Of a stretch of DNA of 64,000 nt, positions 2,755-64,000 are shown one piece after another. Origin of the DNA: a virus; the IMG/VR virus record IMGVR_UViG_3300031972_001405, positions 1 to 64,000 of that record. The stretch is one strand, 5' to 3'. Both the position numbers and the translations under genes were made by a program. Under the pieces are notes generated by a model. It was not told the origin of the DNA and did no database searches. It was given only the letters and a program-made list of their open reading frames with translations. The stretch's first letter is position 1; each line of letters opens with the position of its first letter.

Positions 2755-3330
2755 TCAAGCCTGGTAGTTAGGATATGGAGCGTTGCCAGTTTGAATACCT
2801 GACATAGCAACCAGAACCTCAGACTTCACACGAAGATTGCCGTGGTTGTCAGTATACGTCTGAACACCAACCCAACCAGAGTGAGCAGGACGATATGCAG
2901 AGGTTGAAGCAAGACCAACAGATCCTTGTGCAAAGTCCTCATGACCAGCAGCAAGAGCAGTTGAACCTACACCAAAGTAAGTTACGGTTGATACTCCACT
3001 ACCACCATAGGCATACTGAGTTGCCAGAGGATCTACCTCAAGATATCTTGGAGCAGTGCTCAGAGAATAAGCAACACCAGCAATTGCTCCAATGGCATCT
3101 GTAACTAGAGCATCGGTGCTAGCAATAGTGACTACACTAGTACTAGAGACACTGACAATCTGTGCAAAACCACAAGTATTTCCGAGACCAAGATAGATGA
3201 AGTGCGAATCAGTTCCAACGCCTGCTTCAAAAGGTCCAGGTTCAATCTCAATTGAATTTGTAGACAACCCAACAGTAGCGACACCAACGGCCACCGACTG
3301 AAAATTGTCTCTATCTCCCCAAAGAGCCAT
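2755..3330 (-). CDS. Probable virion structural protein
   Basis: MALWG start, HSGWVG..RVKSEVLVAM end, Gly/Ser/Thr-rich; late promoter TATAAATA at 3361-3368. Confidence 0.7.
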   Translation of the reverse strand: MALWGDRDNFQSVAVGVATVGLSTNSIEIEPGPFEAGVGTDSHFIYLGLGNTCGFAQIVSVSSTSVVTIASTDALVTDAIGAIAGVAYSLSTAPRYLEVDPLATQYAYGGSGVSTVTYFGVGSTALAAGHEDFAQGSVGLASTSAYRPAHSGWVGVQTYTDNHGNLRVKSEVLVAMSGIQTGNAPYPNYQA

Positions 3331-3360
3331 GTCTTTTTCCTAAATTACGTTCCTAGTTTA

Positions 3361-3368
3361 TATTTATA
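3361..3368 (-). promoter_or_regulatory. T4-type late promoter TATAAATA
   Basis: Exact gp55 consensus about 30 nt upstream of the 191-aa gene. Confidence 0.8.
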
Positions 3369-63102: not shown

Positions 63103-63106
63103 TGCT

Positions 63107-64000
63107 TTAGAATTCTAAAATGACTTTGATGTCTTCTTTTTGGTTGACAGACCTAGTTACCTGGGGTCTGTTATCGATATAAATGATGTCGCCTGTGTAC
63201 TTTCGTACTTCTGGATCAGATACTCCAAGTTCAAAAGTTTGTCCAAGATTGTAAGTACGATTATTTATTGTGGTTGTAATACCACTAAACGACGTGTCAA
63301 TAGCAACTGTTGCCGTTCCACCATTAAGAGCGAAATCTCCATTAGTATCATCAATAAGAGAATTCTGGAATCTTAGAAGTTTGTTTCCAAACTCAACAGT
63401 TTCTCCAACAGTTTGTGCGACACCCAAAGTTCTATCTTGCCAATATTTGATAACACCAGTAGTGCTATCCCAAGAAATGACTCTACCAACAGCAGTAGAA
63501 CCAATACCAATAGTTTGAGTAATTACAGAATCTGGTACAAAATTAATGTCAGCAACATTCTGTGCAGTTACTTTTAACGCTCCTACTGCAGTTGCTCTAG
63601 ATGATGTAAGAATATCGATAGAATCATAAGCAAGAGGATCTTTTACAACACCAACTCTGGCAAATTGATTTCCAGTAATGAAATCTGGATTAGTATCATC
63701 ATTATCCATCCTCGCATAAAGCATGACTCGATTTCCACCAAGCTCTCTGTAAATGTCAGCTCCATGATTTCCCTGGGGAGGGACAATTACATTGAAGTTT
63801 GCTGGAGAAATTGAATTTGTTAAACCAGCATCATCAAGATCTAGTGTTCCGAATGTATAATTACTTCCACCCTTCTCAATATCAACTGCCTCAATCTTTC
63901 CATCTGCATTCACTGTTACAGTCGCTGTAGCACCGTCTCCATCGCCTCTAAGAGGGACATTTGAGTATGATGTAGCAGTTCCATATCCAGCACCTCTATC
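63107..64000 (-). CDS. gp8: Baseplate wedge protein (gp8), 3' part
   Basis: PPQGNHGADIYRELG, NQFARVGVVKDP, GDIIYIDNRP...QKEDIKVILEF; frame is open to the window edge. Confidence 0.9.
   Translation of the reverse strand, partial: DRGAGYGTATSYSNVPLRGDGDGATATVTVNADGKIEAVDIEKGGSNYTFGTLDLDDAGLTNSISPANFNVIVPPQGNHGADIYRELGGNRVMLYARMDNDDTNPDFITGNQFARVGVVKDPLAYDSIDILTSSRATAVGALKVTAQNVADINFVPDSVITQTIGIGSTAVGRVISWDSTTGVIKYWQDRTLGVAQTVGETVEFGNKLLRFQNSLIDDTNGDFALNGGTATVAIDTSFSGITTTINNRTYNLGQTFELGVSDPEVRKYTGDIIYIDNRPQVTRSVNQKEDIKVILEF

What the first reader, a model, noticed from the sequence alone, without database searches (positions are those of the whole stretch)
2755..64000. A G-[IVLF]-[GSAT]-[ST] micro-motif recurs across unrelated virion proteins: candidate glycosylation sequon
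Seen: 191-aa protein (GVAT, GLST, GVGT, GVST, GVGS, GLAS), gp23 (GLGT), gp18 (GVSS, GFTT, plus near-matches GMGT, GINT), gp14 (GIGS, GFTS, GITT, GLST, GLAT), gp13 (GVTT), 124-aa protein (GFTS), 2772-aa protein (GFGT, GVTT, GITT, GIST twice, GIAT, GIGS, GVAT, GISS, GITS, GVST), gp8 (GIGS, GITT). It is scarce in the replication enzymes. Convergence of one short motif in non-homologous surface proteins suggests a shared modifying enzyme. The window also carries nucleotide-sugar genes (UDP-sugar dehydrogenase, TagD/RfaE-like transferase). Inference: phage-encoded O-glycosylation of the virion at a defined sequon.
Basis: partly seen in the sequence, partly recalled or inferred. Interest (0 to 1): 0.7.

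Follow-up and report, generated by a model that had tools for sequence, protein, structure and literature searches.

The report
Clade-specific Gly-Ile-x-Thr virion loop motif
The outer virion proteins of this marine T4-like cyanophage carry the motif Gly-(Ile/Val/Leu/Phe)-small-(Thr/Ser) about five times too often. Only the phage lineage with this excess also carries a conserved set of sugar-transferring enzymes, so the motif is a testable candidate sugar-attachment site, although no modification has been shown.

Summary
In the window's virion proteins G-[IVLF]-[GSAT]-[ST] occurs 40 times against 7.8 expected from composition. The other 23 orderings of the same residue classes give 0.6-3.6x. 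Shuffling within 8-residue blocks still leaves a 4x excess. A 4115-aa baseplate protein outside the window repeats it (47 vs 6.6). T4 shows no excess (6 vs 7.7). Replication proteins sit at baseline and are not depleted.

The excess is lineage-specific: 8 cultured cyanophages are rich (2-5x) and 11 are poor (0.5-1.4x), although their gp8 and 2772-aa proteins are orthologous. Motif sites fall in loops and turn over between orthologues.

An unbiased gene-content comparison found few genes confined to the rich lineage. They include GT11, GT25, a sugar epimerase/dehydratase and a very conserved A197-like GT-A glycosyltransferase. That GT-A is on this contig, 17 kb past the window, and occurs in 8/8 rich and 0/11 poor genomes.

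All rich genomes form one clade, so this is a single evolutionary event. No modification is shown, and a purely structural turn element remains nearly as likely. Earlier reports of this scan reached similar conclusions on other genomes of this clade.

The parts
2755..3330 (-). 191-aa protein of unknown function. It has the highest motif density: 6 hits at residues 16, 21, 37, 112, 120 and 139. It is a late gene and is confined to the motif-rich lineage.
   Evidence: 6 observed against 0.5 expected. PHROG 3086, no Pfam match. TATAAATA lies at -38. tblastn finds it in 5/5 rich and 0/7 poor genomes. The family has over 2000 members, all unnamed.
34093..35502 (-). gp23 major capsid protein, 1 motif (GLGT at residue 162)
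   Evidence: PHROG 138. 1 observed against 0.61 expected, so no excess on its own.
36675..37382 (-). gp21 prohead protease, 2 hits (GVSS141, GIGS146). These belong to the conserved protease motif and not to the lineage-specific signal.
   Evidence: T4 gp21 has GVSS138 and GLGS143 at the same place.
40230..42521 (-). gp18 tail sheath, 3 motifs (residues 102, 189, 409)
   Evidence: PHROG 23 and Pfam sheath domains. 3 observed against 0.9 expected.
50822..51856 (-). gp15 tail sheath stabiliser, 1 motif
   Evidence: PF16724. Count.
51891..53264 (-). gp14 neck protein. The T4 neck domain (residues 1-175) has no motif. The C-terminal extension has 5 (residues 191-286), within G-x-G-Y repeat modules.
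   Evidence: PF11649 matches residues 3-160 only. The extension matches PHROGs of giant virion proteins and aligns to the 4115-aa protein at 1e-5 by blastp. 5 observed against 1.4 expected.
53264..54103 (-). gp13 neck protein, 1 motif
   Evidence: PHROG 211. Count.
54129..54503 (-). 124-aa LtfC-like beta-sandwich protein, 2 motifs
   Evidence: PHROG 1084/3304. Count.
54784..63102 (-). 2772-aa giant virion protein (VrlC-like, DUF4815), 15 motifs
   Evidence: 15 observed against 2.1 expected. It is orthologous along its whole length to the 2403-aa protein of S-RIM2 (2 motifs) and the 2169-aa protein of MED4-213 (3 motifs). Its motif sites are mostly lineage-specific and often lie in indel loops.
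63107..64000 (-). gp8 baseplate wedge protein, C-terminal 297 aa inside the window. The whole gene runs to 64654 (515 aa) and has 3 motifs.
   Evidence: All three sites are conserved across 80 orthologues of the lineage. S-RIM2 and MED4-213 have unrelated, often longer, loop sequence at the same positions.
11345..11812 (-). 155-aa cytidylyltransferase-like gene (TagD/RfaE-domain-II-like).
   Evidence: PF01467 and PHROG 7878. Present in only 1/5 rich and 1/7 poor genomes.
25973..26743 (-). 256-aa truncated UDP-glucose/GDP-mannose dehydrogenase-like gene.
   Evidence: PF00984 and PF03721 partial matches. Present in 1/5 rich genomes at 25% identity.

Best explanation
The motif is best written x-[V/S/T]-G-[I/V/L/F]-[S/G/T/A]-[T>S]-(T). 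It is a short linear element that one large lineage of T4-like cyanophages (Kyanoviridae) has gained again and again in loops and turns of its outer virion proteins. These include the baseplate giants, gp8, the gp14 extension, tail fibres and a small 191-aa late protein.

The most likely cause is a trans-acting factor that only this lineage has. The best candidate is a phage-encoded protein O-glycosylation pathway that uses the motif's Thr/Ser as acceptor. In this reading an A197-like GT-A glycosyltransferase (257 aa, same contig at 81083-81856, beside the baseplate genes) acts on the proteins. GT25, GT11 and a nucleotide-sugar epimerase/dehydratase, seen in complete relatives, would supply and extend the glycan.

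Shown: the excess, its dependence on residue order, its loop location in one predicted model, its restriction to one lineage, its turnover within orthologues, and its co-occurrence with these genes. Inferred: that any sugar is attached, which residue carries it, and which enzyme starts it.
For: 1. The excess is order-specific and survives local shuffles, so composition does not explain it.

2. It is not a property of the folds. T4 has 6 against 7.7 expected. The orthologous proteins of S-RIM2, MED4-213 and 9 other cyanophages give 0.5-1.4x, against 2-5x in 8 lineage members. Whole-genome ratios are 2.5-3.6 against 0.7-1.0.

3. In gp8 three separate loops carry the motif, where the other lineages have unrelated sequence. 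In the 2772-aa orthologues the sites differ even between members of the rich lineage. This points to a continuing pressure rather than inheritance of fixed sites.

4. In the unbiased gene-content profile, only 11 of 205 S-CAM9 ORFs occur in at least 4/5 rich and at most 1/7 poor genomes. Eight of them occur in 5/5 rich genomes. Four of the 11 are sugar enzymes: an epimerase/dehydratase, GT11, GT25 and the 250-aa GT-A.

5. By Pfam, GT11 and GT25 occur in 5/5 rich and 0/11 poor genomes. The GT-A profile occurs in 8/8 rich and 0/11 poor genomes.

6. The GT-A has invariant D110 and D112 in W-I-D-S-D-I-V-F (D-x-D). A deep profile hits the STIV A197 glycosyltransferase, PDB 2C0N, at E = 2e-7. ESM-Atlas neighbour clusters are named 'Glycosyltransferase'. 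The protein is 85-89% identical in the 80 best-matching loci shown, out of 598 IMG/VR matches. Distant relatives are fused to TPR repeats, a protein-binding module.

7. Eight of 10 motifs in the AlphaFold model of the gp7-like C-terminus lie in loops or turns.

8. The same host strains (WH7803, WH8102, MW02) appear in the records of both rich and poor phages. A host enzyme alone therefore does not explain the split.

9. Thr is preferred over Ser 72:28 in rich genomes, against 52:48 in poor ones.

10. Precedent: mycobacteriophage virions are glycosylated by phage-encoded enzymes (Freeman et al. 2023, cited as ref. 61 in PMC12801897).
Against: - All motif-rich, GT-bearing genomes are one clade. 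The named phages among 102 GT11 records and 95 close-gp8 records largely coincide. The correlation therefore counts as one event.
- V/I flanking the Gly, together with beta-branched residues, also fits a plain strand-edge or tight-turn element. In gp8 the motif loops are shorter than those of the other lineages.
- The GT11, GT25 and epimerase genes are not in the 87-kb fragment, which is 46% complete. Only the GT-A is.
- The GT-A has a sigma-70-like (early-type) promoter, not a late one.
- The literature reads these genes as host cell-wall or LPS modifiers. The S-SCSM1 virion proteome reported no modification, though none was looked for (PMC9602691).
- The AlphaFold model of the GT-A failed (pLDDT 33), and no Pfam GT model reaches its cut-off on it.
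Confidence: 0.4

Rival explanations
1. The motif is a purely structural element: a compact strand-end or tight-turn solution (Gly for the turn, beta-branched Val/Ile/Thr for the strands). It became the habitual loop style of this lineage's beta-rich virion domains and spreads by descent, domain duplication and micro-duplication. The glycosyltransferases are unrelated lineage markers that act on the host surface.
For: - Motifs lie at strand/loop junctions in the model.
- In gp8 the motif loops are shorter than in other lineages, and their flanks are equally conserved.
- Local tandem copies such as G-I-T-T-I-S-G-I-T-T look like slippage.
- Part of the signal lies in shared G-x-G-Y repeat modules.
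- A related V-G-G/N-small-x-x-P-x-x-x-L motif forms capping loops of trimeric beta-helix fibres, with no glycosylation reported (PMC10769870).
- The correlation with glycosyltransferases is a single clade event.
Against: - Orthologous proteins with the same folds in 11 other cyanophages, in T4 and in phiM19 show no excess.
- Sites turn over between close orthologues instead of being inherited.
- There is no extended conserved context beyond positions -1 and +4.
- The fibre capping-loop consensus has 0 strict matches. Only 7 of 89 motifs have the Pro.
Confidence: 0.36
2. The motif is recognised by another lineage-specific factor. This could be a different modification (for example phosphorylation, acylation or cross-linking), an assembly chaperone, or a docking site for a lineage-specific structural protein.
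For: The lineage-specific gene set also holds unknown small proteins and large structural proteins: 2166-aa, 920-aa, 114-aa, 91-aa and 63-aa ORFs in S-CAM9, and 89-aa and 65-aa ORFs here. The case for a trans-acting cause does not say which kind.
Against: No kinase, acyltransferase or chaperone domain was found among the lineage-specific genes. Four of the eleven are sugar enzymes.
Confidence: 0.12
3. A host (cyanobacterial) O-glycosylation system modifies the motif, and the phage lineage evolved the sequon to exploit it.
For: Ser/Thr motif in loops. From my own knowledge, not tested here: cyanobacteria glycosylate pilins and the SwmA surface protein.
Against: The same host strains appear in the records of both motif-rich and motif-poor phages. 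The split follows phage genes, not hosts.
Confidence: 0.05
4. The pattern is a chance or composition artefact of a motif chosen after looking at the data.
For: The motif was defined post hoc by eye.
Against: It replicates out of sample on the 4115-aa protein, on 80 related loci, and on three genomes predicted beforehand from their GT11 gene: P-SSM2 3.9x, S-T4 4.7x and S-SRM01 4.25x. Ordering and local-shuffle controls also hold.
Confidence: 0.01

Closest known systems
Virion glycosylation of mycobacteriophages by phage-encoded glycosyltransferases (Freeman et al. 2023, Cell Host Microbe; seen here only as ref. 61 of PMC12801897, as the paper itself is not held)
   Same: A tailed phage carries its own glycosyltransferases, and virion proteins would be O-glycosylated in the infected cell.
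   Different: From my own knowledge: there the glycans sit on Ser/Thr-rich C-terminal stretches of the capsid and tail-tube subunits and were shown by mass spectrometry. Here the candidate sites are a dispersed four-to-six-residue loop motif, mainly in baseplate, neck and fibre proteins of a myovirus, and nothing has been shown chemically.
STIV A197, the GT-A fold glycosyltransferase of Sulfolobus turreted icosahedral virus (PDB 2C0N)
   Same: It is the only solved structure hit by the profile of the lineage-specific 257-aa protein (E = 2e-7). The alignment runs across the D-x-D segment and the G-x-G-F...E-D-V-x-F segment.
   Different: A197 is from an archaeal virus and is about 200 aa long. 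The sequence relationship is distant (two 17-bit segments). No fold model of the cyanophage protein could be obtained.
Capping-loop motif of trimeric beta-helix fibres, V-G-G/N-small-x-x-P-x-x-x-L (Bdellovibrio MAT proteins, phage T5 and K1F S74 fibres; PMC10769870)
   Same: It is a short V-G-x-small loop element that recurs in phage-type fibre proteins and is structural there.
   Different: It requires Pro at +6 and Leu at +10. The virion proteins of this contig have 0 strict matches, and only 7 of 89 motifs have a Pro at +5 to +7. It also does not explain the restriction to one lineage.
'LPS / cell-wall modification' gene clusters of large T4-like cyanophages (P-SSM2, S-SSM7, S-SCSM1; PMC9602691)
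   Same: These are the same genes: GT11 alpha-1,2-fucosyltransferase, other glycosyltransferases and GDP-sugar enzymes.
   Different: The published reading is modification of the host surface. The link to a virion motif and the lineage-wide conserved core (GT-A, GT11, GT25, epimerase) are not part of that reading.
Bacterial protein O-glycosylation with short or structural sequons: Bacteroidetes D-[ST]-[AILVMT], and autotransporter heptosyltransferases that recognise a strand-loop-strand (own knowledge, not tested here)
   Same: A Ser/Thr acceptor next to a hydrophobic residue, in a beta-rich surface protein.
   Different: No homologue of those enzymes was sought or found here, and the sequon differs.

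Membership tests
Phage-encoded virion O-glycosylation system | The phage genome encodes at least one glycosyltransferase | tested here: met
   A 257-aa GT-A-like gene lies on the same contig (81083-81856, outside the window). GT11 and GT25 occur in all 5 complete relatives of the lineage that were scanned with Pfam. They are not on the 87-kb fragment, where only Pfam GT2 was searched.
Phage-encoded virion O-glycosylation system | Glycan covalently attached to virion proteins | not testable with these tools
   This needs mass spectrometry or glycan staining of purified virions.
Phage-encoded virion O-glycosylation system | The candidate acceptor motif co-occurs with the enzymes across genomes | tested here: met
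   The GT-A occurs in 8/8 motif-rich genomes and 0/11 motif-poor genomes. GT11 was found in all eight rich genomes (Pfam in five; tblastn in the other three) and GT25 in the five scanned; neither occurs in the 11 poor genomes. All rich genomes are one clade, so this is one independent contrast.
Phage-encoded virion O-glycosylation system | Acceptor residues exposed on the assembled particle | tested here: inconclusive
   8 of 10 motifs lie in loops or turns of one AlphaFold model with pLDDT 75. No coordinates, accessibility values or assembled structure were available.
GT-A fold glycosyltransferases (A197-like / GT2-like) | D-x-D metal/nucleotide-sugar motif after a beta strand | tested here: met
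   W-I-D-S-D-I-V-F, with D110 invariant and D112 at least 90% conserved over 63 relatives at 31% mean identity.
GT-A fold glycosyltransferases (A197-like / GT2-like) | Significant sequence or profile match to a solved or curated family member | tested here: met
   Profile A4 against the PDB hits 2C0N A197 at E = 2e-7. PHROG glycosyltransferase hit at 1.2e-5. No Pfam model reaches its cut-off: the protein itself has none, and distant relatives score 22.3-22.4 against 23.3 bits for PF00535.
GT-A fold glycosyltransferases (A197-like / GT2-like) | Predicted GT-A (Rossmann-like) fold | tested here: inconclusive
   The AlphaFold model failed (mean pLDDT 33) because the alignment was 85-89% identical.
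Capping loops of trimeric beta-helix fibres (V-G-G/N-small-x-x-P-x-x-x-L) | Pro at +6 and Leu at +10 after the V-G start | tested here: not met
   0 strict or relaxed matches. 7 of 89 motifs have a Pro at +5 to +7, and 1 has the full context.
General feature of T4-like virion proteins | Excess present in T4 and in other T4-like lineages | tested here: not met
   T4 6 against 7.7. phiM19 0.5x, S-RIM2 0.5x, MED4-213 0.9x, and 9 more cyanophages 0.7-1.4x.

The most novel reading that the evidence does not exclude
A major lineage of marine and freshwater T4-like cyanophages (about 95-100 of roughly 460 sequenced cyanophage records) coats its baseplate, neck and fibre proteins with O-linked glycans at a defined loop sequon, x-[VST]-G-[IVLF]-small-T. 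In this reading a phage-encoded A197-like GT-A enzyme installs the first sugar, and GT25 and GT11 extend it, possibly to a fucosyl-galactose cap. This would be the first sequon-directed virion glycosylation system in a T4-like phage, and a new reading of the cyanophage 'LPS genes'.
Probability: 0.35. Interest if true: 0.85.

Novelty: new variant of a known kind. Interest (0 to 1): 0.68.

Why it matters
T4-like cyanophages kill a large share of the ocean's Synechococcus and Prochlorococcus. If one of their main lineages glycosylates its adsorption apparatus, that would bear on host range, adsorption, particle stability and stickiness, and recognition by grazers. It would also change how the widespread cyanophage 'cell-wall/LPS' auxiliary genes are read.

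The work gives concrete, cheap tests:
- a defined peptide motif;
- a named candidate enzyme (the 257-aa GT-A);
- cultured phages on both sides of the divide that infect the same hosts.

Even if the motif proves purely structural, an order-specific four-residue word that marks one phage lineage at over 100 sites per genome is a useful marker. It would also be an unusual case of lineage-wide sequence convergence in loops.

Tried and rejected
- **Composition artefact:** rejected by per-protein shuffles, 23 alternative orderings and block shuffles.
- **DNA-level word:** rejected, because codon use at the motif equals background.
- **General property of phage structural proteins:** rejected by T4, phiM19 and 11 cyanophages.
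- **Depletion in non-virion proteins (avoidance of spurious modification):** not supported. The count is 135 against 79.5 over 80 loci, mid-range among the orderings.
- **One long conserved repeat carrying the motif:** an ungapped profile shows information only at positions -1 and +4. G-x-G-[YF] modules account for only a minority of sites.
- **Fold assignment of the motif-rich C-terminus:** Foldseek found nothing. VIA-align gave only a common six-stranded barrel at Z about 6.
- **PDB sequence relatives of the giant protein, the gp14 extension and the 191-aa protein:** none found.
rejected.
- **A small GT2 found in three related IMG/VR records:** it occurs in only 10 phage records, so it is not a lineage marker.
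- **O-FucT (PF10250) and GT8:** no hits. The O-FucT control did not ring in any control genome, so that result is uninformative.
- **An independent evolutionary contrast (GT11 outside the lineage, or a lineage member without it):** none was seen among the listed records. The named GT11-bearing cultured phages are the same as those with close gp8.
- **Late-promoter test of the GT genes:** uninformative. The S-CAM9 genes have no late-like or sigma-70-like box within 120 nt upstream, and the GT-A has a sigma-70-like promoter.
- **AlphaFold model of the GT-A:** failed.
- **Fibre capping-loop consensus:** does not fit.
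Full report
**What the window is.** The 64-kb window is the first part of an 87.4-kb IMG/VR virus contig that is about 46% complete. All genes run on the minus strand. It is a T4-like cyanomyovirus. It carries nrdA, primase, gp41, UvsX, gp43, gp44/62/45, gp46/47, gp55, UvsW and UvsY. The virion module follows: gp23, 22, 21, 20, 19, 18, 17, 16, 15, 14, 13, a 2772-aa giant protein and gp8. The nearest cultured phage is S-SCSM1, at about 79% nucleotide identity in the head genes. 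Beyond the window the contig continues with the rest of gp8, a 4115-aa gp7-like protein, gp6 and gp25. After these come a ferredoxin-like gene, a 257-aa gene and a mannose-6-phosphate isomerase-like cupin.

**Checking the observation.** The 22 virion-module ORFs have 40 hits against 7.8 expected from each protein's own composition. The other 58 ORFs have 1 against 4.7.

The motif was chosen after looking at the data, so I used controls that do not depend on that choice.
The rest give 0.6-2.2x.
- Shuffling residues within blocks of 8 to 40 residues, for the virion ORFs of the whole contig, gives 18-22 hits against 89 observed.
- Codon use at the motif matches the background, so the signal is at protein level.
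- Eighty IMG/VR loci around gp8 homologues have 3154 hits against 694 expected.
- Eighty loci around the DNA polymerase have 135 against 79.5, in the middle of the range of orderings. Non-virion proteins are therefore at baseline and not depleted.

An aligned profile of 88 sites shows information only at -1 (V/S), +4 (T) and the four motif positions. In the larger set Thr is preferred 72:28 over Ser, and there are weak preferences for L, N and V at -4 to -2.

**Which proteins carry it.** The excess is concentrated in five places: the 4115-aa gp7-like protein, the 2772-aa protein, the C-terminal extension of gp14, gp8 and the 191-aa protein. T4-core proteins together have 10 hits against 3.6 expected. 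Two of those are the conserved gp21 protease motif that T4 also has. The gp14 extension shares G-x-G-Y repeat modules with the gp7-like protein. 'Unrelated proteins' is therefore only partly right.

**Structure.** No solved structure is related by sequence to the motif-rich parts. An AlphaFold model of the last 296 residues of the gp7-like protein (47-sequence alignment, pLDDT 75) places 8 of 10 motifs in loops or turns between beta strands. The central part resembles a common six-stranded barrel, only weakly (Z about 6).

**The excess is not a property of the folds.** T4 virion proteins show no excess, 6 against 7.7. Among cyanophages the trait is bimodal.
- Rich: S-SCSM1 4.7x, S-CAM9 5.0x, P-TIM68 3.8x, ACG-2014f 3.1x and S-CAM7 2.0x. 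S-CAM7 is 2.5x genome-wide, and its fibre giants have 59 against 6.5.
- Poor (0.5-1.4x): S-RIM2, MED4-213, S-B64, S-RIM8, P-SSM3, S-SSM4, ACG-2014d, MC09, Sf-CH1a, S-H9-1 and S-CAM1. The rhizobiophage phiM19 is at 0.5x.
- Genome-wide the ratios are 2.5-3.6 against 0.7-1.0.

The proteins are nevertheless orthologous. The 2772-aa protein aligns over its whole length to the 2403-aa protein of S-RIM2 and the 2169-aa protein of MED4-213, which have 2 and 3 motifs against 15 here. In gp8 three separate loops carry the motif in all 80 lineage members, while S-RIM2 and MED4-213 have unrelated, often longer sequence there. Within the rich lineage, the sites in the 2772-aa orthologues mostly differ from phage to phage and often lie in indel loops. 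This pattern of repeated gain, turnover and restriction to one lineage points to a persistent lineage-specific cause rather than inheritance of fixed structural positions.

**Looking for that cause.** I downloaded five rich and seven poor complete genomes. I then asked which S-CAM9 ORFs occur in at least 4/5 rich and at most 1/7 poor genomes. Only 11 of 205 qualify.
- Four are sugar enzymes: an NAD-dependent epimerase/dehydratase, a family-11 glycosyltransferase, a family-25 glycosyltransferase and a 250-aa protein.
- Three are large, motif-rich structural proteins, including the gp7-like one.
- One is the 164-aa counterpart of the 191-aa protein.
- Three are tiny ORFs.

By Pfam model, GT11 and GT25 are present in 5/5 rich complete genomes and in 3/5 incomplete rich IMG/VR records, and in 0/11 poor genomes. 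GT1 and GT2 hits are likewise confined to rich genomes.

I then predicted that three further GT11-bearing phages would be motif-rich. They were: P-SSM2 3.9x, S-T4 4.7x and the freshwater phage S-SRM01 4.25x.

**The enzyme on this contig.** On the window's own contig the lineage-specific genes are the 191-aa protein, the gp7-like protein, two tiny ORFs and the 257-aa gene at 81083-81856. The evidence on the 257-aa gene is as follows.
- It is 85-89% identical in the 80 best-matching loci shown, out of 598 IMG/VR matches. This is far more conserved than gp8.
- It carries W-I-D-S-D-I-V-F and G-E-D-V-S-F-C.
- It falls among ESM-Atlas clusters named 'Glycosyltransferase'.
- It has a weak PHROG glycosyltransferase hit.
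- A 63-sequence profile hits the STIV A197 GT-A glycosyltransferase (PDB 2C0N) at E = 2e-7.
- Its profile is found in 8/8 rich and 0/11 poor genomes.
- Some distant relatives are fused to TPR repeats.
- Its AlphaFold model failed for lack of alignment depth.
- It has a sigma-70-like promoter, whereas the 191-aa protein has a perfect late TATAAATA box.

**Limits.** The named cultured phages among the 102 records with a GT11 homologue are the same as those among the 95 records whose gp8 is at least 41% identical to this one. The rich genomes are therefore one clade, and the perfect correlation is one evolutionary event.

The 155-aa cytidylyltransferase-like gene and the truncated UDP-sugar dehydrogenase are sporadic. 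The 405-aa 'cytidyltransferase' is found in all 12 reference genomes, and its relatives are described as NMNAT-like virion proteins (PMC9602691).

The literature reads the cyanophage glycosyltransferases as host cell-wall modifiers, and no glycosylation of cyanophage virions has been reported. A structural precedent exists for a similar V-G-x-small capping loop in trimeric fibres (PMC10769870). Its defining Pro and Leu are absent from nearly all sites here.

Host strains do not separate the groups: WH7803, WH8102 and MW02 appear in the records of phages of both kinds.

**Verdict.** I rate a phage-encoded modification of the motif, most plausibly O-glycosylation involving the A197-like GT-A, as the single most likely explanation at about 0.4. 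A purely structural, lineage-specific turn element is close behind at about 0.36. Neither can be settled without mass spectrometry or staining of virions.

Earlier reports of this scan on other genomes of the same lineage reached similar conclusions. I checked two of their leads and both hold as stated above: the A197 match and the capping-loop paper.

Noticed in passing
contig G000:C1 81083-81856 (-), 17 kb beyond the window end (locus L003:2084-2857): A 257-aa A197-like GT-A glycosyltransferase. It is 85-89% identical in the 80 best-matching loci shown (of 598 IMG/VR matches), while gp8 of the same phages is only 50-60% identical. It sits beside gp25 and a ferredoxin-like gene and has a sigma-70-like promoter (TTGACA-N17-TATCAT).
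   Followed up: yes
proteins P0154, P0157, P0165 (distant relatives of the 257-aa GT-A): Some relatives are fused to TPR repeats and one to an FkbM-type methyltransferase. TPR-glycosyltransferase fusions are typical of enzymes that act on protein substrates.
   Followed up: partly
window 5695-6912 (-): The 405-aa 'cytidyltransferase' (PHROG 395) is present in all 12 cyanophage genomes compared, rich and poor. The S-SCSM1 paper reports an NMNAT-like protein of this kind in virion proteomes. It is not a nucleotide-sugar enzyme.
   Followed up: partly
4115-aa protein residues 3934-3945, 3969-3978 and 4032-4041 (contig 64693-77040); 2772-aa protein residues 507-515 (window 54784-63102): Tandem micro-duplications of the motif itself (G-I-T-T-I-S-G-I-T-T, G-V-T-T-T-G-I-T-T, G-F-G-S-G-V-G-V-G-S). 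They occur in loops where orthologues have a single copy or none.
   Followed up: partly
window 2755-3330 (-): The 191-aa protein starts M-A-L-W-G and ends in a very conserved H-A-G-W-V-G-V...H-G-N-L-R-V-K-S-E-V-L-V-A block. It belongs to a family of over 2000 unnamed proteins, has a perfect late promoter and is probably an unrecognised virion protein.
   Followed up: partly
locus L181:12511-13062 (S-SCSM1): A 2OG-Fe(II) oxygenase gene sits between the gp7-like gene and a tail-fibre gene just upstream of gp8, inside the structural module of the closest cultured relative. This hints at other protein modifications.
   Followed up: no
P-TIM68 record KM359505.1 58617-59513: The GT-A homologue of P-TIM68 matches the profile in two halves (positions 1-133 and 127-255) within one 301-aa open frame, so it carries an insertion of about 30 residues in the middle.
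   Followed up: no
contig G000:C1 82090-82500 (-): A monofunctional mannose-6-phosphate isomerase-like cupin, as described for S-SCSM1, with a late-like CATAAATA box 11 nt upstream. Among the 12 genomes compared it is found only in S-SCSM1.
   Followed up: partly
locus L189:13887-14600 (S-CAM9): A sulfotransferase-family gene lies in the S-CAM9 glycosyltransferase cluster, next to a GT4/GT1 gene and GT25. The product could be a sulfated glycan.
   Followed up: no
window 54784-63102 (-), residues about 1430-1510: The middle of the 2772-aa protein is extremely Arg-rich (for example around residue 1436), in contrast to its acidic N-terminal part.
   Followed up: no
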